A stretch of 64,000 nucleotides of DNA from the NCBI GenBank assembly GCA_973851085.1, contig OZ316775.1, positions 9,238,001 through 9,302,000 on the forward strand, written 5' to 3'. Each line of letters begins with the position of its first letter. Positions within the stretch are counted from its first letter, which is position 1. Source of the DNA: Ptychomitrium polyphyllum (Eukaryota). Below the pieces are notes generated by a model that searched no databases, was not told where the DNA came from, and worked only from the letters and a program-made list of their open reading frames with translations. Both the position numbers and the translations under genes were made by a program. Shown here piece by piece: positions 14,001 through 57,697 of this stretch.

Positions 14001-16264
14001 TGATTTGTACCTGGAGTTTGCTGAGGTAGAAGCCCGTAGAGGAGCGCATGAGGGAAGGCGTTTCCTGATTGACTAGGAACGAAGGTCCGAGGTTCCTCAC
14101 GAACTCCGGAAGCATCCACCAAACGGCTTGTGTTGGCCGTGTCTGATCAGGCTCGTCATACACAACATCTGAGTGCGGAGCTTGAAGAGTGCCAAGCTGT
14201 ATCTTTGCAAGAACTTGGAAGTGCTAGATCTGGATCGCTGTGATGAGCTCGAGGAGCTTGACGTGACGGGGATGGAGATACGTGGTGGTCACCAGTTGTA
14301 GGCACCTTGAACATTGGAAAGGGCTGGAGGATTTGAGCGATCTTGCTATCTTGCGTTGGACTCGTGATGTATATGCCCTTGAAGTTTGTATTGCGCCTGA
14401 ATTCGTCCAAGATCTGTTGTTGTTGACTTCACTGGAAGTCTTGGATGTAACGGGATTATCCTGGTCGAGGATCGATGCATTCCCACCGAACTTGAGTGGG
14501 TGCACTAGGTTACGGGAGCTCACTATATCTACAGATTTATTTTCTGGAAAGAGGCGGGCACCAGCAGCTTCTGCTGCAGGTGTCGGCGAGTGTTTGCCTA
14601 AATCTCTGATGAGGGTTGATTTCTCTGACGGCCCTGTGCTTGTAGTAGGCTCACATAGTATTGGTGGAATGAGCGCACTAAAAAACTTGCGAGACTTAAA
14701 TTTGGTTGGTTGCGTGGAGGGCACAGATTTGACAGGATTGTGCGAGCTGATTTGTTTGGAGAAGCTCAATGTTGGCTCGACAGGGATTTGTCAGGTACCT
14801 GATGATTTGAGGAAGCCGAAGCAGCTGCGGTTGCTTGCTGTAAGCTGGTGCCGTAATCTCAAGAGCTTAGCTGGCCTTGCCCATACGACAGCCTTGCAGC
14901 GTTTGGATGCTCCTGGTTGTCTTAGCTTGGAAGGGCTTTCAGCTGGTGATTATCTTGGTTTGGAGCTACTGGGGCACCTTGATGTGCGATGTTGCGAGAA
15001 GCTGACAAGCATAGCTGGCATTGTCCATGCGACAGCTCTGCAACGCGTGGATGCATCCTGGTGTGAGAATTTGGGGAAGCTGCCTGATGAGTTCAGAGCC
15101 TTGGAGAAGCTGGAAATGCTCGATCTGTCTTTTAGTGCAAATATACGTAAGCTGCCAAACGACTACAAGTGGCTTGCAGGAGATCCTGGAAGTGAAGGGA
15201 TCTCGAGGGTGAGAGTGGGAGGATGCTGGGGGCTAGTTGGGGCATTCTTGGAAAGACTACAGGGGCCTGAGATGTCACGACCAGTGAAGTGCAGCGAATG
15301 TGAATCCATGCAAGCATGGACTGATGGCATGAAGAATGTCGACGGTGCTGCATATCACTGGCTTACGGAAATCTTTTCAAGCAGAGATTTTTTATGTTGT
15401 TACTGGAACTACATGTTGAATAATGATGAGGTGCCTCATGTCGTGATAAGAGCGCTCTGTGAGCATTTCACCAGGGGGACCTGTTATGCAGTGTTGCTTG
15501 CGGAAGTCACTGATAGTGAACAGGGTTTCTGTAAGTTGCACTGGTGGGTGGTGGTTGCGACAGCACCGTGTACGTTTGCGGCTGTGACAAAGAAGGCGGC
15601 GGTAGAGCCGTGGAAGCAGACCCTTCTTTACTACAGTATAGATCGGATCGTAGCACGCTACATTGATGATGCAAAATGGCGTGCAATGTTCTGTACGCAC
15701 ATGGGAGCAGGAGAAAGCGAGACATTGGACTAAGAAAGCGAGACGCAGGACGAAGGAAGCAAGATTGATGTGGTTGAGTCTGGATCTCCGAAGGCGGCCG
15801 AAGAGCCATCTAGTGTGGATCGAGATGCCTTGAGAGGACTCGTGAAGTCGTTGACAGAGTCAGTGATCTTGCCAGAGCATGATGGCGATGAGGCCCGAGA
15901 CATTGACGAGGAGGGAGATGATATGTCAAGTAATCAGTCGTGGGTGAAAAGGGGGATTGTGGCTGTTTTTCAGAAGTGCAAAGAAATGCTTGAGGAATCA
16001 AGTTAGGACACGGAAGTTGTGGACACTTTCCTGACACAAATAGAAGCAGCGACGGGTGAAGAACTCACGAAAGTTAGCATATTGTGGAGACAGAACGATC
16101 ACGCACTTCAGAGATTGTCTAGCGAGAGAAGTGCTATGCGAATGGCTGCGCGGAAGTCTGAGCTAGAGACTGAGCAAGTCTCTGAGACAAATGTTCGTGA
16201 AGCCACTATGCTAGAGAGGCTCAGATGCCATAAGGATCTGTTTCCAAACATCCCATTTGGATAA
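11072..16264 (+). pseudogene. TIR-NB-ARC-LRR (TNL-type) immune receptor pseudogene with long post-LRR extension
   Basis: TIR exon 11332-11965: KIFLSRSG, FFDKRDVSLRKGE, AVLVLSNDIFTSSKWPMMEV. NB-ARC: P-loop GMGGVGKST, kinase-2 FLVVDNLW, RNBS-B GSMVLVTARS, GLPL-like GHHPLALK, RNBS-D MFLDLA, MHD-like SIHDLY (exon from 13930). LRRs LxxLdLxxC at ~14180-15200. Lesions: frameshifts at ~13060-13082 and ~14280; in-frame stops at 14074, 14170, 15731, 16004. Confidence 0.88.
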
Positions 16265-19651: not shown

Positions 19652-21397
19652 ATGGCCATGGGCTTCTTTGCCAAAAACGGAAAATGTCGCCACATTCCGC
19701 GCGCGACAGGGTTCCTGTTCACGCTTTTCCTGGCGCTTTACTATTTAGTGTTCACACGGCAAGTGCACATACTGTACCGAGGGGGAGGTGCGTTCGGACG
19801 CCCGTCTGAGAATCTGAATGCAACCGAGTTGAAAGAAAGTCGAGAAACCGCCATTGAAAGTTTGATTAGATCTTTACAAGAGGCCACCAGGGAAGCCGCG
19901 GGAGGGCAGGACGAGAGCGCATGGTGGACACTTGAGGCGAGGGAGAGATGGAATCGGGAGAATCCGTGTGTGAGTCGCATGGAAATGCGGGGGAAGTACA
20001 AGCAGCGAGCAGGAGTGCCGTACGAGGAGCCCAATCCGCAATGGGGAGTGGTTTTGGCGGAGTATGCCAGGCTGCACCGCACTTGTATGCGCAGAGTTGG
20101 TGATGCGACGGCGTATTTCTTGAGCAGAAACTCCTCCGTGAACTGCAAGTTCACGGTGGTGGACACGGAGGAGGCGGCGGGGTTGGGGAACAGGCTAGTG
20201 ATGATAGCGTCGGCGTTTACGTACTCTTTGCTCACGCAACGAGTGCTCCTTATTGCCAGAGAGATTCTACCTCCCGCGCTAGTCTGCGAGCCCTTCGAAG
20301 GCTCCTCATGGCGGGGCTTCGACCCTGGCTATCTTGTGACGCCCTACAGAGCAGGGAACGACTTCTGGACGAAATCCGCGCTCTTTCACAGCCGCATCGA
20401 CATCGCGCAGCGAGTGGGCGACTCGCCCGCGACGTCGCCGCTCACGCACCCCTACTCCGTGGCGAACGGCGAAGGCGGCTACACGGAGCAGGTCGATAGC
20501 CGATTTTACTGCGACATGGAGCAACAGTACTACAAGAACGTCCCATGGGTGTACATCATGGGCTGCCTCTACTTCACGCCCAAGCTCTTCGCAATCCCCT
20601 CGTTCCGTCCCGCCCTCGACGCCCTCTTCCCCGCCAGAACAATCCTCACTAACATCCTCCGCGACGTGCTCTCCCCGTCCGCCACTGTCTGGGACCGCGT
20701 CAAGCGCACCGAGGAAGCCCACGACCTCCACCGCGCGGACCGCCGCTTGGGCATCCAAGTCCGCTATCGCTACAAAGCGGAGCAGTTCAAGAACATGCAC
20801 GTCCTCGTGGAGGATCGCATCCTCCAATGCGGGATCACAAACCATCTCCTCCCACAAACCCAGGAAACCCAAGAGCACCATGCCCTAATCACGGACTCCA
20901 ACCAAACAGTCCACACAACGTCCGTCTTTGTGGCGTCTCTCTTCGAAGGCGTGAAGAACAACCTCACAGCGACGTTCCGTCGCTATCCCACGGCCACCGG
21001 CGAGCGCGTGGAGGTGGTGCAGTTGTCGTCCGAAGGCGAGCAGAAGTACGGGGTGGAGATATTCCAGGAAGCGCTGGCGGAGATCGTCACTCTCAGCTTC
21101 TCCGATCACTTGCTGGTCACTCCGCAGTCGACGTTCAGCGGCGTGGCGCAAGGGTATGGTGGGCTGGTGCCGTGGTTCATCGAGTTCCGGGAGGGGTTGC
21201 AATCCTCCGCTCCTCCTTGCACTCGCGGCCAGAGCGTCGATGTCTGCTTCCAGGTTCCGTATGACTACAGCTTTCGGTGTCCACACGACGCAGCTGTGAA
21301 TAATTATGAGATCAGTCGCGTTTATCCTGATATTCAGCGCTGCTTGGACGCCGACACCCCCGGATTGCAGCTCATCACGCACCCTCCTGCAAGCTGA
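19652..21397 (+). CDS. GT37 family alpha-1,2-fucosyltransferase (xyloglucan FUT-like), type II membrane protein, intronless CDS
   Basis: 581-aa ORF with N-terminal TM (FLFTLFLALYYLVF). GT37 motifs YARLHRTC, GLGNRLVMIASAFTYSLLTQRVLL, CEPFEGSSW, YFTPKLFAIPSF, ADRRLGIQVR, VFVASL, ALAEIVTLSFSDHLLVTPQSTFSGVAQGYGGLVPW, PPCTRGQS. Confidence 0.93.
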   Translation: MAMGFFAKNGKCRHIPRATGFLFTLFLALYYLVFTRQVHILYRGGGAFGRPSENLNATELKESRETAIESLIRSLQEATREAAGGQDESAWWTLEARERWNRENPCVSRMEMRGKYKQRAGVPYEEPNPQWGVVLAEYARLHRTCMRRVGDATAYFLSRNSSVNCKFTVVDTEEAAGLGNRLVMIASAFTYSLLTQRVLLIAREILPPALVCEPFEGSSWRGFDPGYLVTPYRAGNDFWTKSALFHSRIDIAQRVGDSPATSPLTHPYSVANGEGGYTEQVDSRFYCDMEQQYYKNVPWVYIMGCLYFTPKLFAIPSFRPALDALFPARTILTNILRDVLSPSATVWDRVKRTEEAHDLHRADRRLGIQVRYRYKAEQFKNMHVLVEDRILQCGITNHLLPQTQETQEHHALITDSNQTVHTTSVFVASLFEGVKNNLTATFRRYPTATGERVEVVQLSSEGEQKYGVEIFQEALAEIVTLSFSDHLLVTPQSTFSGVAQGYGGLVPWFIEFREGLQSSAPPCTRGQSVDVCFQVPYDYSFRCPHDAAVNNYEISRVYPDIQRCLDADTPGLQLITHPPAS

Positions 21398-24375: not shown

Positions 24376-26688
24376 CTACACGCTTGCACAATCTGCGGGC
24401 ATGAATCCGATCACTTTGTCTTTCAGATCGTACACAATGTCGAAATTCTGCTGTTGAATATTGCCAAGAAAATTAGCCTGCAAAACTTGGGGATCTCTAT
24501 TCGGAACAATGGCCAAGCAAGTGAGATCCTTCACTCCTGGGATAGTGACGAAGCTGTTCGGGGTTGGCAAACTAAGCTGTGCTCCGTCCAGATGAATTTC
24601 CATAGTCGGAAAGCTTGGATTCGTGACACCCGCCATGTCGAAGCAAAGCTCCAGCCCAGTCATGGACGTTGTGCTTATGGGGTACTTCACCTGAGATTTG
24701 TAGGCCTGCAAATCAACAGACAAACAAACAAGTTGGAATTCGATGCTCCAAATGCAATTTGGAAAGCATCAAGGGTACATCGAGAACGTTGATGAAGTGC
24801 AACTCACCACGATAATTTGGTCGTAGGCTTTGGGAAGGAAAATCGAGACAGCAAACCCGGTGTCGATGATGGTGCCGCCTTGACCTGACGAGTCTATCTC
24901 GAAAACAGACTGGTCAATAGGCAGAAGCGTCGATCCCACGCTAATCCCCATCACACGAATATAATAGAAACTAGGGAATTTGGCGTTCGGCAAAATCGGA
25001 GTGTACTGAACTTCACCCTCTGGAATCGCAGCATCGCCCAAGTACAAGGTGCTCGTCTCTTTCGATAGCCAGTGCACAAGACAGTACGAGAATTTTTTAC
25101 CGAATGCTGCCCCGAGCTGCGAGGGTAGCGAGATAGCGCCTTGGCCTAATCCGAAAACCCCTTCAATCTCCTTGTTTTCAGCAAAAAAACCCCTGCTGAG
25201 ATCGCTCGCTCCAAAATGAAGAGTGACCTGCGTCATTGAATGCCACAAATCAATGACGTCTCCAGTAATCCGCCTGATAACATTTCAAAAGTCATGTCCT
25301 CAAAGAAGTCAAGTGCTGATTGTACCTCAGATTTCCCGCCCATAGTGAGGTCTACGGTCAACCTTTCTGTGGAGAAGTTACCGAGCGTTATGGAATGGCC
25401 ATAGTTATAGGTGTATCTGCAAGAGCCTGACAAGCATTTAGCTTTGCTTTTAAGCTCGTCGCACATTGAACTGGAGCATGCAAGCTTCTTGTAGGTGGAG
25501 GACTTGGAAGTGTCGAATATAGGGTCCACTTGCTCGTAGCAATCGCTGCAAGGCTGGCTTTGGATCCATGTAAGGTCACTGCCCGTGTCGATGACGATTC
25601 TGGCTTTCACTGGAGGTGTGCCCAAGTAGATTGGAACTAAAAACTCGCCGGCTCCTGCGGACTCTGGAAACTTCCAGTCAAAGCTCGCCGCCCCGGAAAC
25701 ACCTTCCTGCAATGGGATCGAATTCCACCAACAATTGAGCTGTACTCTGTGGACACGATACCTGACCCTTAGACTCATACAGAATCCTCCACATATACGT
25801 CTATTGTTGGAACGCAAATTTCCTTCGATATCGGTAGCTTCAGACTAAATTTGAAATCATTTATTTACGAATTATAGCTGCGATTAGGGAATCTCTCAAG
25901 AGAGAAATCTGAAAGAGATTTGTAGAGTTGGTGTTTTGGTGGAAATATGCTTACCATGTCTTTAGTGTCACTACTGAATTGTTCCGCCTTTGCTTTCTTC
26001 CCAGCCATCAGGCTGAGCCTGCGAGCGCTTCTCTCAACTGCACATGCGATATGCCGACTGCGAGACTCGACGCCTTGAAGCATTGATAATTCTGCACAGC
26101 TCGGAGATCTTCGCGTCATGTCAAAGCGAACGCCTGGAACGCCATTCTGGTTGTGACGTCGATGAGTTGATGCATGTTCTGCAGCATCGCCCTCTACAGT
26201 GACATGACAAAAACCATAATAATCTGGTAAGCAATGTTTCAGACATGGCTTCACATTTCAATTGACCAGTTAATGAAGGCTCTGGAAATCTTACAAACAA
26301 ATCAAAAGTGCTGAATCGATCATGTTCAATCATGCCAGACTCATAGTAATACTCAACGTGGTGAGCCAGAGAATAAATCACCTGCCGGTAACACTGTTGA
26401 ACCGAAACCCAATTAAGATCAGTTCTTTTCGAACAATCAGTAACTTCTAGATATTTCAATTTCGGTCGTGATACGAATCCAACTCTAGGGGGCCTTACTT
26501 GACAAACTTGAGGTAGCATGTTGATGATCAGCACTACGAGCGTGGCCGCGTGCATTTATACGGCCAGGAGCCCGTGGAACTACGTTACCATATGCTGCAA
26601 TGCTGCAGGAGCTGCTCATCAGCATCAAGAGCACGAACTTCAAAACCCCCATCGAAACTAGGAAACTAGCTGGAGAGGAGACGGCCAT
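24376..26688 (-). CDS. Pepsin-like (A1) aspartic protease, nepenthesin/CDR1 type, with signal peptide; 5 exons
   Basis: Exons 26688-26499, 26193-25955, 25706-25326, 25227-24808, 24705-24376. GEFLVPIYLGTPP, IDTGSDLTWIQSQPC, DPIFDTSKSSTY, GVFGLGQGAISLPSQL, FSYCL, GGTIIDTG, LGNIQQQNFDIVYD, PADC; hydrophobic N-terminus. Confidence 0.92.
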
Positions 26689-35755: not shown

Positions 35756-37328
35756 ATGGCTTTGTCATCACCAAGCCACTCAAAGCCACACCTCATGTCT
35801 CAGCATCTCCAAGTCTTCAAAGCTCGTCGCCCACAGCCAGGACAATATATATCTATGCCTCTTCATGGTATTGGTGTTGAGTCTCATTTTCATCACCTCA
35901 GACCACGAGGTTCCCCTCCAAGCTCAAACCAGATCACGTTCTCAGATTCGTAACTGCGATAGACGACAAAATTTCATCTATGATCTCCCCAAGGAATTCA
36001 ACGACCTCATCGGCATAGGCTGCGCGAACTGGACACTCCCTTTATGGTCCATGTGCGACGAAATCCTAAACGACGGTTTCGGCGAGCTCATGAATCTGTC
36101 GACAGCCTATCATGGAGCACCGCTTCTGCAACGGCCGAGTGCGTGGTATAAGACCGACCAATTCAGCTTAGAGGTCATCTTCCACCACCGACTCGAAACC
36201 CGCCCGTGCTGAACCGAGGATCCTACCCAGGCTTCCATGTTCGACCTCCCCTACTACGTCACCCTCGACATAACGAGCAACTTGTTCAACTCAGACCTCG
36301 CCATCCGCGAGGAGCTCACCCGCTGCTTCGTCACCTGGCTACACGATCAGGAAACGCGGAAGCTCCGTCAAGTACACCGTCACGTGCTCACCGTTGGGCG
36401 TATCATATGGGACGTCTATCGCTTGCAAACTGCGACGTAGGGGAGCTCCCTCCTCACCCTTCCGGAGCTCGAGAACACCACCACGCTCCTCATCGAGCGA
36501 TGTGCTCAGCAGTTTTGTGTTTCGTCTATGGTACCCGCGTGATACATAACAATGCTATCTACCTATGTCATACCCACTCCGATACTCCGATCGTTTTGTT
36601 CTGCTTCATTCTGCCGGTTGTAGGACACAGCCGTCGCGATCCCGTACCCGAAAAACTTCCATTCGGCCTCCGACACGGAGCTTCGGTCATAGCAAACCAC
36701 AGTACGAATGGCAAAGCGCTCTCAGCTCGATTTGTTCGCAGGCTCGGCGCGGGGAACGGCGATTGAGATCATAACAGGCACGGTGCGTGACGAGCTTATC
36801 AACAAGGTTGTCAATTTTCCCAAATGTAAGCTCGTCGCGTGTACCCAGAAGCCATGCGCGGAGAATTTACAGACGATTTACAAGCTGTCTCTAGAGTCCG
36901 TGTTTTGCTTGCAACCCCCGGGTGATAGCGAAACGCGGAAGGGCATCTTCGATACGCTTCTGTTTGGATGCATATCCATTTTATATAGGAAATCGCAATC
37001 CGTGGAGCATTATCTGTGGCATCTGCTGGGGGTTGGAAGTAGCTACTCGGTTCTACTAGACGAAGGCGCCGTTGTGTTCGACCAGTACAACGTGATGGAG
37101 CACTTGGAGCGCATTCGGCAAGCAGAGGTGCAACGATTGCAGGAGAATATAGTGCAGTTGTTGCCAACGCTTCTTTTTCGGAATCTGAGGTTGAATAGTG
37201 AGTACTCGTCGAAGGACGCGTTCGACGGCGCCATCGATTTCCTCGTCGAACTCTTCGAGCGTGAGGGAGCAGGATCTACTGTGACTCTAAAAATCTGCGC
37301 TTCCGTAGAAATGTTCATATGGCCTTAG
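35756..37328 (+). pseudogene. Exostosin family (GT47, MUR3/xyloglucan galactosyltransferase-like) pseudogene
   Basis: TM IYLCLFMVLVLSLIF; CDRRQNFIYDLPKEFN, NDGFG, WYKTDQFSLEVIFHHRL, FDLPYY, HVLTVGRIIWD, AIPYPKNFH, LFAGS, SVFCLQPPGDSETRKGIFDTLLFGC, YLWHL, DAFD. In-frame stops at 36210 (TGA), 36438 (TAG) and 36690 (TAG). Probable intron ~36500-36623; start codon out of frame. Confidence 0.88.
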
Positions 37329-38105: not shown

Positions 38106-40193
38106 TTATCTACCATTGCCAGTGCGCTTCCTGTCTTTCCTCCGCAAAAAGTCCGGGACTTTGCCAAGATCAGAACTTCTTTTAGGATTCTGTTCCCAGT
38201 AGAATATATCATCATCTACAGTTCGAACACTACTAACAACCTTATCATCTCCAGGCTCCCTAAACCCAGTCGCAATGACTGTCATACGTATCATCCCTTT
38301 GAAGCTTTCATCAATGACTGCCCCAAATATCACATTGGCGTTTGGATCAGCCATGTCGTGGACGATTTCAGCAGCAATGTTGACTTCGTGAAGAGTTAAA
38401 TCGCTTCCACCTGTAACGTTGTACACAATGCCCATGGGTCTCGAGATGGATCGGAGTAAGGGAGACATAATGGCTGAGCGTGCTACTTCCTCTGCACGGT
38501 TCTTCCCAAAGCCAGCACCAATTCCTAACATAGCACTCCCTGCATTTGACATGATGGCTTTCACATCCGCAAAGTCGACATTGACTAGCCCGGGTATTGT
38601 GATAATATCTGAGATTCCTTGCACTCCCTGTTGCTCCGAGAAAAAGCACAGTAAGTCATTCGAATTGGACACAAGCACAACGTTAATGTAGACAATGAAA
38701 CAAATAATGACACTGGCAACATCGCAGCTTGGGCGGATGTAAGCACCTCTAAGTTACTCATTCAAGAAAGTTCTTCTGCTGTTTAGATAATATACCTGGC
38801 GCAAGACGTCGTCTGCAAGGTGGAAAGCTTCCAGCATAGATGTATCAGGTGACACGGTCTGAAGCAAGCGATCATTTGGGACTACAACTACGGTGTCAGC
38901 CGCATGGCGCATATCCTCGATGGCTTTCCTAGCTTGCCGAGCCCGGGTGAAGCCTTCAAATGTGAAAGGTTCGGTTACTATGCCAATCGTTAACGCTCCC
39001 ATAGCCTTCGCCAACCGAGCGACCACTGGCGCTGATAATAACAACAGCTAATACATCAATCCACCGTCTTCAAAAGAGACCTCAAGAAATAAAGTCACCC
39101 TGTTATCACACACAATTTATTCTTCAACATCTTATCCTACAAAGTGAAACTAGCTACGCTCTCATGCATGTTCATCAGAAGAGACTGCCATTTGATCATT
39201 AAATATGACTACAGTAAACTGATTGCAAATCAAGCACTTGACCAACGCCTGATGAAATGACGAACTCAGAAAGAACACAAACCTGCCCCTGAACCGGTGC
39301 CACCGCCCATACCGGAGGCAATGAAGACCAAATCAGCACCTTCAAGTGCCATCGAAAGCTCGGCCAGAGACTCTGTCGCTGCTTCTTCGCCAGTTGCACT
39401 TTTCCCACCTGAATCTCGCCAATTACCATAACATCAGGTAATCAATAACTAACCAACAGCTCACATCAAATCGTGCTTACTACTGCACAAATTTCCATTC
39501 GCATACAAAAAGGTTTGAACCCATCTTAAGCCAAGCCATCAGTGAACTCTTTACTTTTCTAATCAATGATATGACAAGGAGTAAGGAACCCTAACCTGCA
39601 CCACGACCAGCGGTGGTCTCTTGCCCAATCTGAATCTTATTTGGAGCAAGCGACTTGTTCAAGGCTTGTTTATCTGTGTTGACGGCCCAAAATTCAACGT
39701 TCAGCAGCTCCGATCTCACCATTTCATCCACTGCATTGCATCCACCACCTCCAACGCCGAACACCTTGATCGAAGCGCAGCCAGACAAACTGCGTCTCAT
39801 GCTGCTCGCCGCAAACGAATCCTGTACGTCATTGTAGTCCTCCTCCACCTTACTGGCGAAAGAGTCCATCGCCGCTGAAAAAGCATAGGGATCAGCTCCT
39901 TCAGAGGGCAACGCATATCCATTTTCCTGGCTCGATGACCCATCGAAGTTCCCATTCAAGCTCCCATTTCCTCTGTTGTAAGCCGAGACGCGACTGTGTT
40001 CTCTAGCCCTCTCATCATCACCCCTACAAGTATGAAATGCCTGACATCGAATACTTTGCAAATGCAGCGGCCCCCGTAATCCAAAACGAGCTCCTCTTGC
40101 ACCTGAGCGACATCCCCAATTGCCTCTCAAGGGTAGATGAACCAAAGAAGGGCTCACAGGGCCAGAACCCACCACAGCCCTGCACGTGACCAT
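38106..40193 (-). CDS. FtsZ3: Plastid division protein FtsZ, FtsZ3 type; 4 coding exons
   Basis: Exons 40193-39596, 39408-39283, 39031-38796, 38627-38106. [64 protein letters not shown]. Transit peptide and C-tail (DDDIFYWEQ...[11 protein letters not shown]) match my recollection of moss FtsZ3. Confidence 0.93.
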
Positions 40194-44105: not shown

Positions 44106-45680
44106 TCAAGCATCATCATTGTTGGTAACTCTCCTCGACCTTGGAGAAAACTTCCCGAACCTTCTCGCAACCTCTCCACTTGACAGAGTATCCCAAACAT
44201 GTAAATTTCCCTTAGATCCACCAACAGCGAGCAAGAACGGAGCATCCTTGCAAAAACTTGCTGCAAAGACAGCACCGACCTTGGGATTCGTGGAAGCAAT
44301 GCAGGATGGTTGATTCCCTGTTAAGTCCCATAGTTTCACCATTTTATCAGTAGATGCTGTAGCCAGAAAGTTGGGCGCGGCAGTATTATATGCCAAACTA
44401 CACACCGCTTTCTCATGTGCATGGATTGTGAACAAAGCTTTCCCTTGAAGAGGATCAACTGTCCCTGAGCGAACATCATACCCTCCAATAGTTCCGTCTT
44501 CTAAACTTACTAGAAATGTGTGCGACGTGTGCGGGTCCCAGGCAAGAGACTCCACATCGGCAGAGACAGACCACCGGATGGCAGGGGCTTGAGGAGCTCT
44601 CATGTCCGTCAGGCCCACCGTTCGATCGAAGGATCCGCTGAGAAGGACAGTAGGTTCCTTCAAGTTCCAAACTACCGCTTGGACTTTGTCAGTATGAATG
44701 TTCATGGTATGCTCGCACGCCCCTTTTACAATATCCCAGATTTTGACCGACTTATCTGCACTTGCACTAGCAATCACGTTCCGAAATTCAGAATTCCATG
44801 AAAGACCTAAAACTGCATCAGTATGACTACCCTCCTTGTACTTCACCTCCTTGGCTTTCGCCTTCGACTTCTTTTTCGACTTCTTCTTCTTCTCCGAAGC
44901 CTCTTCCCCCGCTGCAGGCTGCAGCGCTCTCCCTAATACACTCACAGGCTCGACCGAGTCCACCACATCCAAGTCCCAAATTTCAATCTCCGGCTGCATC
45001 GTCCCCACTGCAACGTAACTCCCCTTCCCTTCGCCCGTAGGGTTACAATCCAACCATGAAAGACATAAAGGAAAAGCCGGCAACATGATGTCATGATGAA
45101 CATACATATTACTCTCTTCAGGATCCTCACTAACCGTCTCCTCAGTCTCATACACCCAAACCTCAAGATGGCTCACGTCGTCTTCATTCCGAGCTGTCAA
45201 AACGATCAAATCCGAATCCTTGATAGTCATATCCTCAATTTCCTCCTCATCGTCATCATCCTTATCAACAAGATAAGGGTCATCCTCATTACTAGGGTAG
45301 TACGCTGCCCCCAACCCGCCATTACCAAAAATCTCAACTCGTTCTTCATCTTCCTCATCGTAATGATCCATGTCAAGCTCTGCCAACCCATCCGCCAGAG
45401 TCTCCTCGTACGATTTCTGCCCCTTATTAGACTGCGACACCGTCGCTCCAAGTGCCGTAGCAGCCGCTAGAGCTGTAGCGACAGCACTAGGCTCAGTCTC
45501 CTCCATCTCCTCCGCATCCAGCTGCTCGTCGTCTTCCTCTCCCTCCCCCTCGCTCCCCACGGCGACATTCTCCTCGTGCTGCAGCAGAAGCTCTCGAATC
45601 TCCTCCTCCGTGGGCGGTTCTGCCACAATCGGCACGTTCTTGGCTGCCCCCTTGGGCACCCAGCACACAGCTGCAATCAT
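44106..45680 (-). CDS. PWP1: Periodic tryptophan protein 1 (WD40, ribosome biogenesis), intronless CDS
   Basis: 524-aa ORF: MIAAVCWVPKGAA, LAELDMDHYDEE, YYPSNEDDPYL, EDDVSHLEVWVY, NMYVHHDIMLPAFPLCLSWLD, AVGTMQPEIEIWDLD, SHTDAVLGLSWN and further WD repeats. Confidence 0.96.
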   Translation of the reverse strand: MIAAVCWVPKGAAKNVPIVAEPPTEEEIRELLLQHEENVAVGSEGEGEEDDEQLDAEEMEETEPSAVATALAAATALGATVSQSNKGQKSYEETLADGLAELDMDHYDEEDEERVEIFGNGGLGAAYYPSNEDDPYLVDKDDDDEEEIEDMTIKDSDLIVLTARNEDDVSHLEVWVYETEETVSEDPEESNMYVHHDIMLPAFPLCLSWLDCNPTGEGKGSYVAVGTMQPEIEIWDLDVVDSVEPVSVLGRALQPAAGEEASEKKKKSKKKSKAKAKEVKYKEGSHTDAVLGLSWNSEFRNVIASASADKSVKIWDIVKGACEHTMNIHTDKVQAVVWNLKEPTVLLSGSFDRTVGLTDMRAPQAPAIRWSVSADVESLAWDPHTSHTFLVSLEDGTIGGYDVRSGTVDPLQGKALFTIHAHEKAVCSLAYNTAAPNFLATASTDKMVKLWDLTGNQPSCIASTNPKVGAVFAASFCKDAPFLLAVGGSKGNLHVWDTLSSGEVARRFGKFSPRSRRVTNNDDA

Positions 45681-46837: not shown

Positions 46838-49800
46838 ATGGCTATGGCGGCGTCGCTCCCGCACTACCACGGCCTGCGCTGCACCGCTCTGCAGCCGCAG
46901 TGCTACTCGCGTGCTGTGTCTCGTAAGTTTGGGCTATCTCTTGTTGCTTTATTGGTTGCATTCGTTCTTGGCGTTCTTTAGGAGTACTAGCTTGGTCAAT
47001 GCGGTTCTGCTGTGGTTGCTGGATTGATGATCGTGTTTTGTCAAGTTCAGTTGTTTGTTGAAGTTGTGGTGGTCGGAGTAGTGATTGGGGCAGGGTGGTT
47101 GGCTTGAGGTTTCTGGATTGGTTGGATTGTGGGTGTAGTTGATTGGAGTGAGCGTGTGTGGGTGCAATGTGGTTTTGGGGTGTTTGGGGGTGTACTCGGT
47201 AGGTGGGTGCGGATGTTTTGATGTTAGGGGATTGAGTTGACGATTGTTTCGGTTTCGGCATGTGGATTTATGGGATGTTGAGTTTGGATTGGTTGGAGAG
47301 GTTGAGGTTGTGGGCGAGTAGTGGGAGGGGGGCGGGGTTTAGGGGATTGCTGTTTACGAGTAGAAGGATGGAGCTGAAGCGGGTTTTTAGTTTCTCTGTA
47401 TGTGTGTTGCAGCGAATGGCAAGGCAGGGGCTTCCCGAGTGCGGTGCGCGGCGCAAGTTGCGAGCGCGCCCAAGAGAGAGACGGACCCGAAGAAGAGGGT
47501 GGTGATCACGGGAATGGGGCTTGTGTCGGTCTTCGGAAACGACGTCAATACTTTCTACGATAAGCTTCTGGAAGGGACCAGTGGGATTGATATCATCGAT
47601 AGGTTTGATATCTCGAAGTTCCCCACAAAATTCGCCGGACAGATTCGGGGGTTCAGTGCAGACGGGTATATTGACGGGAAGAACGATCGCCGTCTAGACG
47701 ACAGTCTTCGGTACTGCCTGGTCAGTGGCAAGAAAGCGCTTGAAGACGCTGGGCTCGGTGGAGATGATCTCAACCAGGTTAAGTTCCGAATCTGCATAAC
47801 AATATGATGGAATTCAAAACTCAGTATTGAATACGTTACTCTGTGCTTGAAGTTAATCTTTTGGATTCCTGTCAAGAATTTAGCGTTTTGATATTTTTTG
47901 CGCAGCATTCTATAGAAAGGTTTACGAAGCTTTGTAGAACTGGAGGTTGAATTTAAATCGACATGACACTCATTTTCTGTGGCAGGAGCAAGTTGAACTT
48001 AACGTGTGTTCTTGTAATGCAGGTCGATAAGCAAAAGGTTGGAGTGCTTGTTGGAACTGGCATGGGTGGGCTCACTGTATTCTCTGATGGAGTTCAAGCT
48101 TTGGTGGAAAAGGGTCACAAAAGGATCACACCGTTTTTTATCCCGTACGCCATTACTAACATGGGTTCTGCCCTTCTTGCTATCGACCTTGGGTTGATGG
48201 GTCCCAACTACTCAATCTCAACTGCTTGTGCCACTTCCAATTACTGCTTCTACGCCGCTGCCAACCACATTCGGAGGGGAGAGGCTGATATAATGGTCGC
48301 TGGCGGTACAGAGGCAGCCGTTCTTCCGATTGGGTTGGGCGGTTTCGTGGCTTGCAGGGCTTTGTCGACGAGAAACGACAGCCCACAAACTGCGTCCAGG
48401 CCTTGGGACAAGGAACGTGAGGGGTTCGTGATGGGCGAGGGTGCAGGCGTGTTGGTATGCGCCATGCCCTTACTTAGCGGTCGGTTGAAATGACAGCGAC
48501 AGGTTTTTAAAATGTCGCAATGTTTGCATTAGCTTCTATGGAGCGATCGATCAATGTTGTGCCAGAATGATAATCTGATTAAGGTTGGTTCCCCTCTGAA
48601 GGTTATGGAGAGTTTGGAGCATGCGTTGAAGCGAGGAGCACCAATCGTGGCGGAATATCTGGGGGGTGCGGTGACGTGCGATGCATACCACATGACAGAT
48701 CCCCGAGCCGATGGGTTGGGTGTTTCTACGTGTATTGAGAAAAGTTTGATAGATGCCGGTGTTGCCACTGAGGAGGTATCAATCTGCTTACTTTGTAGTG
48801 ATGAATGTGGGACAGGCTCCTCAACTTGAAGGCAATTGCTTACAGGGCTAGATGGCCATACATGGTGCACTTGCATGAAATGTGTGTAGCTGCAACTAAC
48901 TTGTTCACGAAGTTGTGCTCTGGTAGGCTAGAGTTATTGAATGATATCTTAAAGGCATCTGAACCTACTTGATTTGTGGACATAGCCTGTTGGTATCGCT
49001 CCGGTTGAATGTGGATGGTGAACTGGCAGGTCAACTATATCAACGCACATGCTACTTCGACAATCGTGGGCGATTTAGCTGAAGTGAACGCACTCAAGAA
49101 GGTCTTCAAGGACACCTCAGAGATGAAAATGAATGCAACCAAGGTATTTGTGCTTTCTAATCTTCTGACGCGTATTTTCCTGGTTCTACAATGGGGTTGT
49201 CGCGGTTTTGATTTTTCAAGCAGTAATAATGCGGAGTTTCTAGAGGAGTTCAGATTTGCAGTCCTGGTTTGTAGAGCTTGATTGCAAAGATCGAGTGCTT
49301 GCCGCATGTCCGAGTTAATGTCTTCAGTCTTTAATGCAATTTGGGTGACTTGCTTAAATGTCTCAGAGTATGATTGGGCACTGCCTTGGAGCTGCTGGAG
49401 GTTTGGAAGCGATTGCTACCATCAAGGCTATTCAAACTGGATGGTTGCACCCATCGATTAATCAGTTTGTAAGTGCAGCTCCTGCAGGACGATTTCTAAC
49501 TTCTGTAGAAACGTGCTGTTTGTTCTACCATGTCTGTAAACAAACGACTGGCTAATATCAGATCTGCTGAGCACTTTTTGTCTACAAACTGGAACTTGTT
49601 TATCAAGGGACGGTCATTACTGTGGTGTGCTCTTGAAAGCTTGAGGCAAGTGTGCCATTTTAGTGAATGCTAGTTCGGGTATAATGTATTACGTAGTTTC
49701 AATGGGCTCCTTGTCTTTATGGAAACTAAGAAGGCTTTGATTGGTCTCGGCTGTTACAGAACCCCGAGGAGGCGGTGACGTTTGACACAGTGCCAAATGT

Positions 49801-53200: not shown

Positions 53201-53592
53201 CGTTTGAGTACATTGTTATAGGGAAGGCTTTCTGGTTTTGCAGAGTGAGGATCCCAGCAATGACTGGACTTTTGTGCCTTCTGATGCAAAGAGGATCATC
53301 GATCCCAGCATGGTTTTTTGAAGATGGCTCCGTCCTATATGACACTGTGCTTATGCAACGATTCAGCTCGGGATATCAATGAGGTGTCTTCGCATGACTC
53401 TGCTGTCGACAGTAGCTGCGCAATGAAGTTGTAGAACTTAACTTCCGATGGATGGGAGATATGCATCTGATCTTTTCCTCGTTTTCATAAAATTAAGGGG
53501 CGATTCAAATATTTGTCATTCATCATGATGAAAGATGGTGCTTCAGGATTTTCCGATGCGGCTGTGATTCATGATGAGAAATGTTGAGCCGC

Positions 53593-54324
53593 GCAGAGAA
53601 CAAGTCTTTTAGGGCCTGAGCCGCAGCAGGTGCGATACTTTTGAGCAGACCTCTCCAGCCATTTCTCCACGCGGTGCTAAGGACCACTGGAGACTCAGAG
53701 CTCCGTGCATCCAAGCTTTGCAATCCGAGATGGTGAGGGTGTTCATTCCTTCTCGACCGGCGCATTTTTTGAAAGTCATATTAGAAGAACTGACAGTCGA
53801 GATGATTAGTGGTAATGATTTTCTTGGAAGGTCACTTCTGTTTTCTGACACTGATTCACTGCCTAGGACATATGTTTGGGAAGAGTGGACAGGTGGGGGA
53901 CTGCAGTAATTTGAGAGAGTTGTTTACTCATATCACATGTAAATCCTTAACTTGGGACATAGCTGTTGCAGTACGGAATCCTATTGTACCTCTGAAAAGT
54001 TGACCCACCTCTTCTGATTAAAGCTAGACTATGACTGTCGCGGACAAGCCACTTCACCGTACAATTGTCGAAAAAGGCAGTGCCGTCTCGGAGTATCCAT
54101 TGTTATTATAGAACTCACAAGATACGCGCGGTGCGCTGCGAAGAGAGCGAGCCCTGCAGACAACAAGGCTTTTAGGGCCTGGGCACCAGCACGTGCGATA
54201 CTTCTCAGCAGGCCTCTCCAGCCATTTCTCCACGCGGTGCTAAGGACCTCTGGAGACTCAGAGCTCCGTGCATCCAATCCGAGATGGTGAGGGTGTTCAT
54301 TCCTTCTCGACTGGCGCAAATTTT
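53593..54324 (+). repeat. Dispersed direct duplication of ~170 bp (53593-53768 and 54156-54324)
   Basis: Near-identical core CCTCTCCAGCCATTTCTCCACGCGGTGCTAAGGACC...GGAGACTCAGAGCTCCGTGCATCCAA...TCCGAGATGGTGAGGGTGTTCATTCCTTCTCGAC; a 9-bp indel between the copies. Confidence 0.9.
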
Positions 54325-55105
54325 GGTGACAAGACTCGTAGTGAGCGAATCCTGTCTCGCGCAACCCCGTGTAGAGATTAGTTGGGTGTGAAAGTGTTGT
54401 TCTTGGTTGCACGGCAGCGGTATTCTGAATGGCACGCTGAGAGTTACGTGAGTATGACTTCTTTCTTGTTTGTATATTTGCATTCAGCAGATCACCTCGG
54501 TCTACCTGTGTCACATATTCCAAAATGCTGTTGAGTTGGTGAGTTCTGTGAGACTGTTTTTGCTGGCTACATATGTCACCGAAATTGATCCGCTGGGAAT
54601 TCTCTGTTCTTGCTCCAAATGTTTCTCACGTCCTGAAGGTGGACATCCAGTTCTGCGTTCGTCGGTGGCTTTACACTTTCTTGTTCAGTAGTCATGGAGA
54701 ACCTTGAGTGTGGGATCAGTAAACTGTGCACCTGAACTCCGAGTTTCTGGGCTAGCTTTGCAGAAAGTATGTAAAGAAAGTAGTGGAACGAAGTCACTAG
54801 AGTTTGAGAGTTTAAAGCATGCATCAGACGTTACCAAGGTCTCTTGAAATTGTTGATCTCTTCGGGCTCTTTGAATTTCGTAGGATTTCATTTCGGCACT
54901 TCACATTGTTGTGATCGTTGTACTAGGTGAAAGGGATGTATGATCTGAAAAGAAACGAAGCAACTGAGCAAGTGTTTAGGTCTAGCAGTGTTTGGAGCTC
55001 GGTTTGATCCTCATATTGAATCCTTCATTCTCTGGATTCAACTTCGTGTATATTTGGACTCGGCTCGCTTTAGCTTGAACTGATTGTCTTTACTTATCCA
55101 ACGCC

Positions 55106-57697
55106 ATGGCCGGGGAGAAAGGAAAAGTTGTGCTCATTGGCAAGAGAGGGTCCGGCAGAACAACCCTGGCAAACATGCTCGTGAGCGGGATGCTTCAGGA
55201 TTGCCCCCAGCCCCCAGACACCGACAGCATCTGCAAGACATATGTAGGCAGAGGATGGACTGTCATAGACACTATGGGGTTCGGTACTGAGCCACTGGGC
55301 GGCATCGTCCCAGACGAGTGTGCCAGGAAGATGACGATCGACTTTCTGGAAGAAGTGAAAGGCCGTTACAGCCACATCATATTTGTTGTGGACGGTAGCG
55401 ACATAGGCGACACGGAATTTGGTCGAGACGAGGAGTCCACCGTGCCAATCATGTGGAAAACCTTTCTCGAAATTTTTGAAGGTAGTGAGGAAAACTTTAT
55501 CGTCCTGGTGACCAAGGTCCAGCCGTCAATGTCGGTGCCGACCCGTGAGGAGATCGAGGCGATGCGGACCAAAGAAGGATTTGAGGATGTGTGGTTCACC
55601 GAGGTTCTGCTGATGTTCCCGGAGTGCAGACAGTTTCTCTTTCTACCTCTTCTGAAGATTCCAGAAATTTCGACAGCTTCCGAAGCCACAGCCGAAGTGC
55701 TCTTTTCCAAGAAGCAGGAGGAGTTGGAGAGATTAGAGAAAGAGATGGCAGAAATGTTCATAGCTAAGCCGTGGGTGGAGCCGGACATCTGGAAGATGGG
55801 GGACGAGGAGATAAACGAGAAGGCAGTCAGGATCACACGTCAACTAACGTCTAGTCGGGCAGGAAAACTACGGAACTGGGACTCATTGCATGGGTCGGTA
55901 TACGTGCCAGTAATGTTTTATAGAAGACAATCAGTACCGGTTTCAGGTAAGGAATTGTTGAAAGGAAAAGCTGGTGCAGTTTCGGTTGTTCTGGACGAGA
56001 TGAAGAATTTGGGGAAGGAGGTGAAGTTTTATTACCGTCAATGTGAGTACCTTCTCCAAAGAAGCATAGCAGCATCGAAAGAAATTCACGACCTTTTTGA
56101 TGCAGTGAACTGGAGCGAGCGTATCCTAACGCATTCTTTGGATCGTCTGATCAAACCTCTAGACAATCTGATCTGTACTATGAAGGCGGGGAAGGGATTA
56201 CTGCACGTCTGTGGTGATAGCGAACAGGAGCAGGAGGTCGCCCTGACTTTGTCTCCTCCGGGCTCTGGTACAAGTTCGTTGTCTAAGTTCGCTCTTGTGC
56301 TCCGTGACCTGGAATGGTGTCTGGATGCATGCCGCTTCTTGTTTCACAATCCAGAAGTTGACCGCGGTAGTCGAAGTGAACGAAAATCTCGCCTCTCGAA
56401 TTTTTTCGCCTTTCGGTTTCACATTCCAAAAGTTGAGCGCGCTTCTGAAAGTGAACGGCAAGCCTGCCTCTCGAAATTCATGTGGTGTGAAGCGAGATGC
56501 AGAATGGTTTATATGGATGACGGTGAGAACATGGATGCAGGTGTACATCTCGCTGAGTCTTGCGTGGCAGCCGATAACGATAGACAGGCTCAAGATCAGC
56601 AGGATCTGATTTCATCTATGGAGAGTCACTTCTCAACCTTACACAATCCAAGGAAGGTTCAAAATAAGCGCTTTGATTCTAATCGGTTCTTTTCAGATCG
56701 ACAGAAGAATAAGAAGCAGCCTTCCAGTTCCGAGATTTTGAACTACATGTCCATTCTGAAAAACAGGTTGCAGGGTGATTCATCTTTCGAAGCCCCGAAT
56801 ACGATTCCAGGCTGTTTTTCGATTCGGGGAAACCAAGAATTCAGGTCAATCCAACTTATTGGAAAGGGGAGTTATAAGGAGGTCCATGAATGCGAATGGT
56901 TGGGAATGAATGTGGCCGTGGCCACTTCCCAGAACCAAGATAGGCTGTTCAGACCCGTCCTTGAAGCGGAAGCAGGAGCGCTGGCGAGGGTGCAACATCC
57001 AAATGTGGTATCCTTTATAGGGTTTACCTACGATGAGGAGAAGAGTCAAGGTTATCTAGTGACAGAGCTTCTGGAAACAAGCTTGCGAGCTCTGATAGAT
57101 CGCAGCAATCGCCACCGTTACTCATCCTCATACCCTTTCACCATCTCTGAATCGATTGATATATTGCTTCAGATTGTGGAGGCAATGATTCACGTGCATG
57201 AGTGTGGAGTGATGCACCGGGATCTGAAAGCTGACAACTTGCTTGCCAATCGTGCGTTTGATAGTAACGGAGGTGGCTTGTACGTGGCTGTGGTGAAGCT
57301 CGTTGATTTTGGGACATCCAAACCCCAAAGCGCAGAGACGGGCTCTAACTTCAAGACAAAGAATGTAGGAACCCGTGCTTGGATGGCACCTGAGGTAATC
57401 CGAAAGGATGGAAATGATATGCAGCTGTACACGATGTCTGCCGATGTGTACAGCTTTGGAATGACTTGCTACGAGATCCTGACTGGTGAAGTACCTTTTC
57501 GGTTGTACATGGGTCGTGCGTTGCCAGAGGCGATTTGTGCAGGACAGCGGCCACGTATTCCAGATAACTGTCCAGATGGTTTGAGGGAGCTGATGACGAA
57601 GTGCTGGACCCACATTCCTCGCGATCGACCAACCTTCAAAGAGATTCGGCGGAAGTTGTGGAGTTTGAAGTTGTATTATACGATTTGCGAGGTCTAA
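55106..57697 (+). CDS. Multidomain protein: AIG1/GIMAP-like P-loop GTPase + plant-MLKL-like (DUF1221/HeLo) helical domain + TKL/Raf-like kinase; intronless
   Basis: 863-aa uninterrupted ORF with gccATGg context. GTPase aa ~5-225: VVLIGKRGSGRTT, VIDTMGF, SHIIFVV, FIVLVTK. Helical domain aa ~285-410: YRQCEYLL, IKPLDNL..MKAG, LRDLEWCL. Kinase aa ~578-857: IGKGSYKEV, WLGMNVAV, HPNVV, HRDLKADN, DFG, GTRAWMAPE, ADVYSFG, CW...RPTF. Confidence 0.9.
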   Translation: MAGEKGKVVLIGKRGSGRTTLANMLVSGMLQDCPQPPDTDSICKTYVGRGWTVIDTMGFGTEPLGGIVPDECARKMTIDFLEEVKGRYSHIIFVVDGSDIGDTEFGRDEESTVPIMWKTFLEIFEGSEENFIVLVTKVQPSMSVPTREEIEAMRTKEGFEDVWFTEVLLMFPECRQFLFLPLLKIPEISTASEATAEVLFSKKQEELERLEKEMAEMFIAKPWVEPDIWKMGDEEINEKAVRITRQLTSSRAGKLRNWDSLHGSVYVPVMFYRRQSVPVSGKELLKGKAGAVSVVLDEMKNLGKEVKFYYRQCEYLLQRSIAASKEIHDLFDAVNWSERILTHSLDRLIKPLDNLICTMKAGKGLLHVCGDSEQEQEVALTLSPPGSGTSSLSKFALVLRDLEWCLDACRFLFHNPEVDRGSRSERKSRLSNFFAFRFHIPKVERASESERQACLSKFMWCEARCRMVYMDDGENMDAGVHLAESCVAADNDRQAQDQQDLISSMESHFSTLHNPRKVQNKRFDSNRFFSDRQKNKKQPSSSEILNYMSILKNRLQGDSSFEAPNTIPGCFSIRGNQEFRSIQLIGKGSYKEVHECEWLGMNVAVATSQNQDRLFRPVLEAEAGALARVQHPNVVSFIGFTYDEEKSQGYLVTELLETSLRALIDRSNRHRYSSSYPFTISESIDILLQIVEAMIHVHECGVMHRDLKADNLLANRAFDSNGGGLYVAVVKLVDFGTSKPQSAETGSNFKTKNVGTRAWMAPEVIRKDGNDMQLYTMSADVYSFGMTCYEILTGEVPFRLYMGRALPEAICAGQRPRIPDNCPDGLRELMTKCWTHIPRDRPTFKEIRRKLWSLKLYYTICEV

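What the first reader, a model, noticed from the sequence alone, without database searches (positions are those of the whole stretch)
55106..57697. GTPase-MLKL-kinase fusion: a candidate single-chain immune/cell-death switch in a moss
Seen: one intact intronless ORF joins three modules. These are an N-terminal AIG1/GIMAP-like (TRAFAC) GTPase fold (G1 GKRGSGRTT, G3 DTMG, G4-like LVTK), a helical region, and a kinase. Known: angiosperm MLKLs (AtMLKL1-3) are four-helix-bundle/HeLo (DUF1221) plus pseudokinase proteins acting in immunity, and IAN/GIMAP GTPases are immunity-associated. From memory, residues 285-410 (RQC..LL; PL..L...K.G; L.DL.WCL) and the kinase N-lobe (W-L-G-x-x-x-A; F..DEEK...LV.EL) line up with plant MLKLs. 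Inference: the GTPase may act as sensor, decoy or oligomerisation switch and occlude the membrane-attacking bundle until activated. I know no description of this architecture.
Basis: partly seen in the sequence, partly recalled or inferred. Interest (0 to 1): 0.9.

Follow-up and report, generated by a model that had tools for sequence, protein, structure and literature searches.

The report
Dead-GTPase-capped MLKL kinase of mosses
This moss gene puts a GTP-switch domain that has lost its key nucleotide-handling residues in front of a relative of the plant cell-death protein MLKL, whose kinase is predicted to be still active, and it likely works as a one-chain immune sensor with the dead GTPase as bait.

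Summary
Window 55106-57697 is one intact 863-aa ORF: an AIG1/GIMAP-like G domain, a predicted four-helix bundle with brace, and a kinase whose two best PDB sequence hits are AtMLKL3 and AtMLKL2. The same fusion occurs in Ceratodon purpureus and two unnamed lineages, so it is not an artefact. DUF1221 is not hit; the bundle assignment rests on a low-confidence model and a weak collinear alignment.

(1) The GTPase looks dead. Its free-standing, tail-anchored parent (Sphagnum, Ceratodon) keeps all G motifs, while the fused copies form one clade that lost the P-loop Lys (7 of 7), part of switch I, the conserved-box Arg and the G4 Asp (8 of 8 each), yet stay 54-62% identical. (2) The kinase may be active. 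The beta3 Lys is gone, but a Lys occupies the WNK/POMK beta2 position (7 of 7), with HRD and DFG intact. AtMLKL2/3 keep that Lys but lost the rest.

Best reading: an integrated-decoy MLKL-like immune switch (0.45). Immune role, killing and transcription are untested. Ten literature searches found no such architecture. New variant of a known kind; interest 0.7.

The parts
55106..57697 (+). Complete single-exon ORF, 863 aa (P0001): pseudo-GTPase, linker, four-helix bundle, brace, atypical kinase
   Evidence: full-length relatives
55106..55855 (+). Degenerate AIG1/GIMAP-like G domain with its helical extension (aa 1-250): a copy of nearly the whole free moss GTPase without its hydrophobic tail
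55139..55165 (+). G1/P-loop GKRGSGRTT; Arg18 stands where the parent has the invariant Lys
55268..55279 (+). G3 DTMG, retained
55856..55945 (+). Variable linker (aa 251-280) replacing the parent's hydrophobic tail; 3 of 30 positions shared by three lineages
55946..56347 (+). Predicted four-helix bundle, HeLo/MLKL-like (helices 281-303, 310-333, 346-368, 394-414)
   Evidence: AlphaFold2 model, block pLDDT about 56-79 over the helices; model residue 286 aligns to AtMLKL3 residue 1 and 287 to mouse MLKL residue 2; weak collinear alignment to AtMLKL2 22-107
56348..56830 (+). Helical brace region (aa 415-575); low model confidence; its end aligns with the AtMLKL3 brace
56831..57694 (+). Protein kinase domain (aa 576-863): Lys591 in the Gly-loop/beta2, Ala606 in place of the beta3 Lys, Glu622, HRD 704-706, Lys708, Asn711, DFG 734-736, APE
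56876..56878 (+). Codon of Lys591, the predicted relocated catalytic lysine
   Evidence: aligns with Gly in CTR1 and with Lys in POMK; present in 7 of 7 kinase-bearing relatives

Best explanation
The protein joins a GTPase domain that has lost its P-loop lysine, conserved-box arginine and G4 aspartate to a predicted MLKL-type four-helix bundle and a kinase predicted to be active through a relocated lysine, and it likely acts as a one-chain immune switch in which the dead GTPase is bait. Shown: the architecture, its conservation, the origin of the G domain from a free tail-anchored moss GTPase, a single degenerate clade, and the kinase residues. Inferred steps: (1) the G domain no longer cycles GTP but keeps its fold and surface, so it would catch whatever binds the free GTPase, most likely a pathogen effector; (2) at rest the bundle would be held off, by brace and kinase packing as in AtMLKL3 and by the 280 residues in front of helix 1; (3) binding to the bait would move the cap on its variable linker and change kinase nucleotide state or autophosphorylation, supplying in cis what RIPK3 does for animal MLKL; (4) the freed bundle would oligomerise at a membrane, or trigger an uncapped partner, to give Ca2+ influx, defence or cell death.
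For: Fused G domains form one clade (100/100; SH-aLRT 99 among 48 rows) nested among free moss GTPases, next to Ceratodon P0024 (support 81), on a long stem (0.40). Losses in the 8 rows of that clade: P-loop Lys 7 of 7 readable, 5-residue switch-I deletion 8 of 8, G2 Thr 6 of 8, conserved-box Arg to Asp 8 of 8, G4 Asp 8 of 8. The 9 free copies keep Lys (8 of 8 readable), Thr and Arg (9 of 9) and G4 Asp (8 of 9). The dead domain is still conserved: 105 of 250 positions (42%) identical in three lineages, against 53 of 134 (40%) in the bundle and 153 of 288 (53%) in the kinase, but 3 of 30 in the linker. Kinase: Lys591, Ala606, Glu622, HRD, Lys708, DFG and APE-Glu in 7 of 7, Asn711 in 6 of 7; Lys591 and Ala606 align with the POMK Lys/Ser pair, 15 residues apart, the catalytic Lys91/Ser106 of PMC5142810. 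MLKL kinship: (6ka4 top Foldseek hit, E 1.3e-8, 603 columns). N-terminal tags compromise killing by mouse and human MLKL (PMC7305131); helix 1 is needed for killing, and active-site perturbation auto-activates the wheat MLKL R3AK.
Confidence: 0.45

Rival explanations
1. Guard or tether through G-domain pairing: the dead domain pairs with the moss's own intact, membrane-anchored GTPase (or a related GTPase delivered by a microbe) across the GIMAP G-interface, which brings the MLKL module to a membrane or reports the partner's nucleotide state.
For: GIMAPs work through homo- and heterodimers, and GIMAP6 inhibits GIMAP7 through that interface (PMC8201404, PMC9111091). The parent has a hydrophobic tail (19-residue hydropathy 1.8-2.0 in 5 of 5 tested) that the fusion lost. 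Ceratodon holds both forms. One distant relative carries a Crinkler effector N-terminal domain (P0105).
Against: The conserved box and switch I, which form that interface, are the parts most altered in the fusion (Gly-Arg lost, insertion after it, 5-residue deletion).
Confidence: 0.2
2. Non-killing signalling kinase or scaffold: the cap has permanently disabled the bundle, and the protein acts only as an active kinase or as a dominant brake on other MLKL-like proteins, with or without a role in immunity.
For: N-terminal additions compromise MLKL killing. All catalytic motifs are kept. AtMLKL immunity can be separated from cell death.
Against: The bundle is as conserved as the G domain (40%), and a Ceratodon paralogue annotated without the cap exists (P0005, 89-90% identical to the capped copies).
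Confidence: 0.17
3. Cleavable prodomain: a host or pathogen protease cuts the linker and frees helix 1, as in gasdermin-like activation.
For: The linker is exposed and variable and ends just before the residue that matches the AtMLKL3 N-terminus.
Against: No conserved site: 3 of 30 linker positions are shared and the G-to-bundle spacing runs from 72 to 131 residues. A mere plug would not need 42% conservation of the G domain.
Confidence: 0.08
4. Working GTPase switch: GTP binding dimerises the G domains and drives oligomerisation of the bundle, as Roc does in Roco kinases.
For: G3 and the overall fold are kept; Arg is a conservative change; two rows keep the G2 Thr.
Against: Joint loss of P-loop Lys, switch-I residues, conserved-box Arg and G4 Asp in the whole clade.
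Confidence: 0.06
5. Artefact or functionless passenger: two neighbouring genes joined by misassembly, or a decaying fusion.
For: No transcript evidence could be obtained. One Ceratodon copy ends just after the Gly-loop (P0003) and P0027 ends inside the bundle.
Against: Full-length open frames in four lineages that are 51-60% identical over the MLKL part, with shared derived changes in the G domain.
Confidence: 0.04

Closest known systems
Arabidopsis AtMLKL1-3 (DUF1221/HeLo plus pseudokinase; PDB 6ka4, 6lba; bioRxiv 10.1101/681015)
   Same: Best PDB sequence and Foldseek matches; bundle-brace-kinase order; shared N-lobe motifs including the Gly-loop Lys and no beta3 Lys.
   Different: AtMLKLs start at the bundle, have lost HRD and DFG (HGE/HGD, GFG), carry a Ser-rich tail and have about 4 exons. 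This protein has a 280-residue pseudo-GTPase cap, intact catalytic motifs, no tail, one exon and no DUF1221 hit.
Cereal MLKL-type kinase fusion proteins Pm13 and R3AK (PMC10951266; bioRxiv 10.64898/2026.08.07.743466)
   Same: Four-helix bundle fused to a kinase with catalytic residues; immune receptors or executors.
   Different: They have canonical kinases of other lineages and a free N-terminal bundle; R3AK is genetically paired with an NLR. No DUF1221-clade monocot MLKL kept the catalytic residues.
GIMAP/IAN (AIG1 family) GTPases, e.g. human GIMAP7 (3zjc) and GIMAP4 (3lxx)
   Same: The free moss parent hits AIG1 above the cut-off (4 of 4), has GIMAP7 and GIMAP4 among its top three PDB hits, and has the conserved-box Gly-Arg and a hydrophobic tail.
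   Different: The fused copy has lost the nucleotide-handling residues and the tail and no longer reaches an AIG1 hit.
WNK kinases and POMK/SgK196 (active-site migration)
   Same: Lys in the Gly-loop/start of beta2 in place of the beta3 Lys.
   Different: Not a WNK or POMK orthologue: the domain scores best with MLKL/Raf-like kinases; the likeness is most likely convergent, and activity is untested.
NLR and tandem-kinase receptors with integrated decoy domains
   Same: A copy of a host protein, degenerate in function but conserved, is built into an immune-type chain; moss NLRs are rich in integrated domains.
   Different: No NB-ARC or LRR and no second kinase; the integrated domain sits in front of the executor bundle; no effector is known.
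Roco proteins (LRRK2, Roco4)
   Same: GTPase and TKL-type kinase in one chain (family knowledge, recalled).
   Different: Roc-COR is a working Ras-like unit; here the G domain is AIG1-like and dead, with a four-helix bundle and no COR.

Membership tests
Plant MLKL (AtMLKL/DUF1221 type) | Four-helix HeLo bundle fold | tested here: inconclusive
Plant MLKL (AtMLKL/DUF1221 type) | DUF1221 Pfam match | tested here: not met
   0 of 9 members at E up to 1.
Plant MLKL (AtMLKL/DUF1221 type) | Kinase-fold domain closest to AtMLKLs | tested here: met
   Ranks 1 and 2 of 2,424 PDB sequences; best single-domain scores with the family profile; no tree with AtMLKL could be built.
Plant MLKL (AtMLKL/DUF1221 type) | Pseudokinase lacking the phosphoryl-transfer residues | tested here: not met
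   HRD, Lys708, DFG and alphaC Glu present in 7 of 7; only the beta3 Lys is absent, with a beta2 Lys in its stead.
Plant MLKL (AtMLKL/DUF1221 type) | Bundle at the N-terminus and Ser-rich C-terminal tail | tested here: not met
   280 residues precede the bundle; the chain ends about 12 residues after the kinase.
Plant MLKL (AtMLKL/DUF1221 type) | Auto-repressed tetramer; bundle-dependent cell death or Ca2+ influx | not testable with these tools
   Needs experiment.
GIMAP/IAN (AIG1) GTPase | AIG1-type G-domain fold and ancestry | tested here: met
   44-53% identical to free proteins that pass the AIG1 cut-off; Atlas 0.95; nested in their tree.
GIMAP/IAN (AIG1) GTPase | Intact G1 Lys, G2 Thr, G4 Asp and conserved-box Arg | tested here: not met
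   Window protein: Arg18, Asp40, Gln139, Asp99; clade tallies 7/7, 6/8, 8/8, 8/8 lost. The role of the Arg as an arginine finger is recalled, not confirmed in a call.
GIMAP/IAN (AIG1) GTPase | GTP binding, hydrolysis and G-interface dimerisation | not testable with these tools
   Needs biochemistry.
Active kinase by beta2-lysine migration (WNK/POMK type) | Lys at the third Gly-loop position, non-Lys in beta3, catalytic loop and DFG intact | tested here: met
Active kinase by beta2-lysine migration (WNK/POMK type) | Measured phosphoryl transfer that depends on that Lys | not testable with these tools
   Needs a kinase assay.
Integrated-decoy immune receptor | Integrated domain derived from a free host protein and functionally degenerate | tested here: met
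Integrated-decoy immune receptor | Binds a pathogen effector and triggers defence | not testable with these tools
   No effector known.

The most novel reading that the evidence does not exclude
A necroptosis-like pathway folded into one moss polypeptide: a pseudo-GTPase decoy as receptor, a WNK-type active kinase doing the RIPK3 job in cis, and a capped HeLo bundle as executor. It would also show that seed-plant AtMLKL pseudokinases descend from an active beta2-lysine kinase that mosses still keep, and would mark an unstudied GIMAP-like moss GTPase as a pathogen target.
Probability: 0.25. Interest if true: 0.9.

Novelty: new variant of a known kind. Interest (0 to 1): 0.7.

Why it matters
Described plant MLKLs begin with a free bundle, and plants have no identified RIPK3 equivalent (recalled). 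A moss relative with a built-in input domain and intact catalytic motifs makes two open questions testable: how plant MLKLs are switched on, and where their pseudokinase came from. The shared Gly-loop lysine suggests an active WNK-like ancestor, which one point mutant and a kinase assay can test. It extends the AtMLKL-like lineage, first described for seed plants, to mosses, and gives a clean parent/decoy pair in the genetically tractable Ceratodon for studying how a GTPase becomes a pseudo-enzyme.

Tried and rejected
Single-sequence AlphaFold2 model: mean pLDDT 35.6, not used. Complex prediction of the G domain (1-250) with the rest (275-863): score 0.00 in two runs, verdict 'no answer', alignment not used by the tool; not evidence either way. 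pdb_via re-ranking listed only kinase domains. Profile of the middle region against PDB: one irrelevant hit, E 0.21. hhalign of A8 with A6 was circular, because A8 holds P0003 with its G domain; discarded. Prokaryotic source of the GTPase: 99 pattern matches in genome contigs, 0 confirmed. No whole genome is held, so paralogues in this organism outside the window are unknown. No sequencing runs could be listed, so transcription is untested. P0006 (39-44% identity) is the only more distant relative without a G domain, and it may be cut short at the N-terminus. A plain pseudokinase reading, my own first one, was dropped. Earlier scan findings: nothing in three look-ups. Rows left out: P0022, P0023 and P0025 (internally deleted or partial; P0022 has Arg in its P-loop) and near-duplicates P0003, P0004, P0008, P0012 from the tallies; the tree used the 48 best-scoring G domains with at least 150 profile positions after dropping 12 near-duplicates or partial rows. 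Pfam was run on 72 of the 148 new hits; none of the 72 showed a kinase family among the families listed. Literature: ten searches listed no paper on a GTPase-MLKL fusion or on moss MLKLs; the library lacks most subscription papers.

Full report
Observation. Window 55106-57697 (+) is one uninterrupted ORF of 863 aa. Pfam finds MMR_HSR1 at aa 7-107 and a Tyr/Ser-Thr kinase at 582-851; nothing credible lies between, and DUF1221 is not hit in any of 9 family members. The best two of 2,424 PDB sequence matches are AtMLKL3 and AtMLKL2, with the alignment reaching back into the brace. The neighbours are a KAS II-like gene upstream (read from the translation, not scanned) and no clear gene directly downstream; a TIR/LRR gene lies about 40 kb away.

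The fusion is real. A search with aa 1-420 returned 3 proteins among 7,994 scored candidates: two from Ceratodon purpureus and one metagenomic. Cluster look-ups added full-length P0007 (Ceratodon), P0008/P0010 and P0175. These four lineages are 51-60% identical over the MLKL part. No transcript evidence could be obtained.

The GTPase has a free parent. A scan of metagenome contigs confirmed 4 of 127 candidate stretches; each encodes a free, single-exon GTPase of 258-261 aa, not a fusion. Its 13 relatives are from Sphagnum species, Ceratodon (P0024) and unnamed sources. It passes the AIG1 cut-off in 4 of 4 cases, matches GIMAP7 and GIMAP4 including the conserved-box Gly-Arg, and ends in a hydrophobic tail. 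The fusion contains this protein up to the tail, which the linker and bundle replace. A profile search of 1.84 billion representatives gave 850 hits; the wider family includes liverwort (Calypogeia), other moss and chytrid proteins. No prokaryotic relative was confirmed.

The fused GTPase is degenerate. Fused-type domains form one clade, 100/100 among 14 rows and SH-aLRT 99 among 48 rows, nested in the free moss group next to Ceratodon P0024 (support 81) on a stem of 0.40. This fits one fusion event in a moss lineage after the split from Sphagnum; sampling is thin and the tree is midpoint-rooted. Six of the 8 rows are seen joined to a bundle; P0026 and P0028 are fragments. In these 8 rows the P-loop Lys is Arg in 7 of 7 readable, switch I lacks 5 residues in 8 of 8, the G2 Thr is lost in 6 of 8, the conserved-box Arg is Asp in 8 of 8, and the G4 Asp is lost in 8 of 8; G3 stays. 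The 9 free copies keep Lys (8 of 8 readable), Thr and Arg (9 of 9) and Asp (8 of 9). Of 112 columns invariant in the free copies, 52 are kept and 18 lost in all five fused rows tested. The domain is nonetheless as conserved as the bundle (42% against 40% three-way identity; linker 10%). Loss of catalytic residues with retention of fold is what a pseudo-enzyme or integrated decoy looks like. That the Arg is the GIMAP arginine finger is recalled; passages of PMC9111091 confirm only that the conserved box and switches form the dimer interface.

The kinase is atypical, not obviously dead. Against CTR1, the third Gly-loop Gly is Lys591 and the beta3 Lys is Ala606. The same pair aligns with POMK, whose Lys91 at the start of beta2 replaces the beta3 Lys and is needed for activity, as in WNK (PMC5142810, PMC4718504, PMC13519141). 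Lys591, Ala606, Glu622, HRD, Lys708 and DFG are present in 7 of 7 relatives, Asn711 in 6 of 7. AtMLKL2 and 3 have a Lys at the same column but HGD/HGE and GFG, and no DUF1221-clade monocot MLKL kept the catalytic residues. The simplest inference is that the AtMLKL pseudokinase derives from an active beta2-lysine kinase retained in mosses. No tree with AtMLKL sequences could be built, so orthology is not shown.

Mechanism. AtMLKL3 is an auto-repressed tetramer whose bundle plus brace is cytotoxic. N-terminal tags compromise animal MLKL killing. In wheat R3AK helix 1 is required and active-site perturbation auto-activates. A 280-residue natural cap should therefore hold this protein off, and a dead but conserved copy of a host GTPase is best read as the input. 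I commit to bait-triggered release with in-cis kinase control (0.45). Rivals: pairing with an intact GTPase (0.2), non-killing kinase or scaffold (0.17), cleavable prodomain (0.08), working GTP switch (0.06), artefact (0.04). Every step after the sequence anatomy is inferred.

Comparison and novelty. It is built like a plant MLKL and probably works like one, but fails three defining features of the AtMLKL family (DUF1221 hit, pseudokinase, free N-terminal bundle) and the G-motif test of GIMAPs, so I file it under neither. Ten full-text searches listed no description of this architecture. The Ceratodon proteins are deposited as hypothetical or 'protein kinase domain-containing'. Limits: the supplement of PMC11218826, which inventories NLR-associated proteins including MLKLs in Ceratodon, could not be read and may list these genes; the journal version of the AtMLKL paper and later AtMLKL work were not seen.

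What was read. 10.1101/681015: parts 1-2 of 5 (abstract, main text, start of methods). 10.64898/2026.08.07.743466: part 1 of 6 and passages. Passages only: PMC10951266, PMC8201404, PMC11218826, PMC4718504, PMC5142810, PMC13519141, PMC9111091, PMC8857920 (109, nothing relevant), PMC7305131, PMC12881547 (113, no GTPase mention), PMC11476962 (114, no GTPase mention). Roco proteins, gasdermin cleavage, P-loop Lys-to-Arg behaviour and the lack of a plant RIPK3 are recalled.

Verdict. Real, conserved, apparently undescribed: a new variant of a known kind, interest 0.7.

Noticed in passing
window 11072-15733 (+): TIR domain (Pfam TIR, E 3e-12) and LRRs in separate exons: a probable TIR-NB-LRR gene about 40 kb from the fusion; AtMLKLs act downstream of TIR signalling, but linkage here is loose and the NB part was not confirmed.
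   Followed up: partly
window 53586-53771 and 54149-54325: A 186-base direct duplication, 87% identical, 0.8-1.5 kb upstream of the start codon; the only self-match in the window. Possibly duplicated promoter or 5' leader sequence.
   Followed up: no
P0037 (Ceratodon M758_11G040400, 666 aa) and P0041: Relatives with an intact-looking G domain followed by what reads as a second, degenerate one (two profile stretches): this GTPase family seems to have made pseudo-GTPase fusions more than once.
   Followed up: partly
P0105 (408 aa, unnamed source): A distant member of the same GTPase family fused behind a Crinkler effector N-terminal domain (E 6.7e-9), a hint that some microbes may deliver such GTPases.
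   Followed up: no
P0003 and P0007 (Ceratodon KC19_1G154600, KC19_1G155200): Near-identical copies with close gene numbers on one chromosome; P0003 stops just after the kinase Gly-loop, giving a kinase-less GTPase-bundle form or a pseudogene.
   Followed up: partly
P0044, P0052-P0063 and similar hits: A large group of 420-565-aa relatives (one from the liverwort Calypogeia) with a 160-300-residue region without Pfam match in front of the AIG1-like domain.
   Followed up: no
L004 8965-10094: LTR retrotransposon remnants (RT RNase H, integrase zinc-binding) downstream of the free GTPase gene.
   Followed up: no
window 19652-21397 (+), 36708-37328 (+), 24769-25778 (-), 38106-40193 (-), 44106-45680 (-), 47400-49281 (+): Ordinary plant genes: xyloglucan fucosyltransferase and GT47 (Pfam); aspartyl protease-like, FtsZ-like, WD40-like and KAS II-like genes (labels from reading the translations, not scanned).
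   Followed up: no
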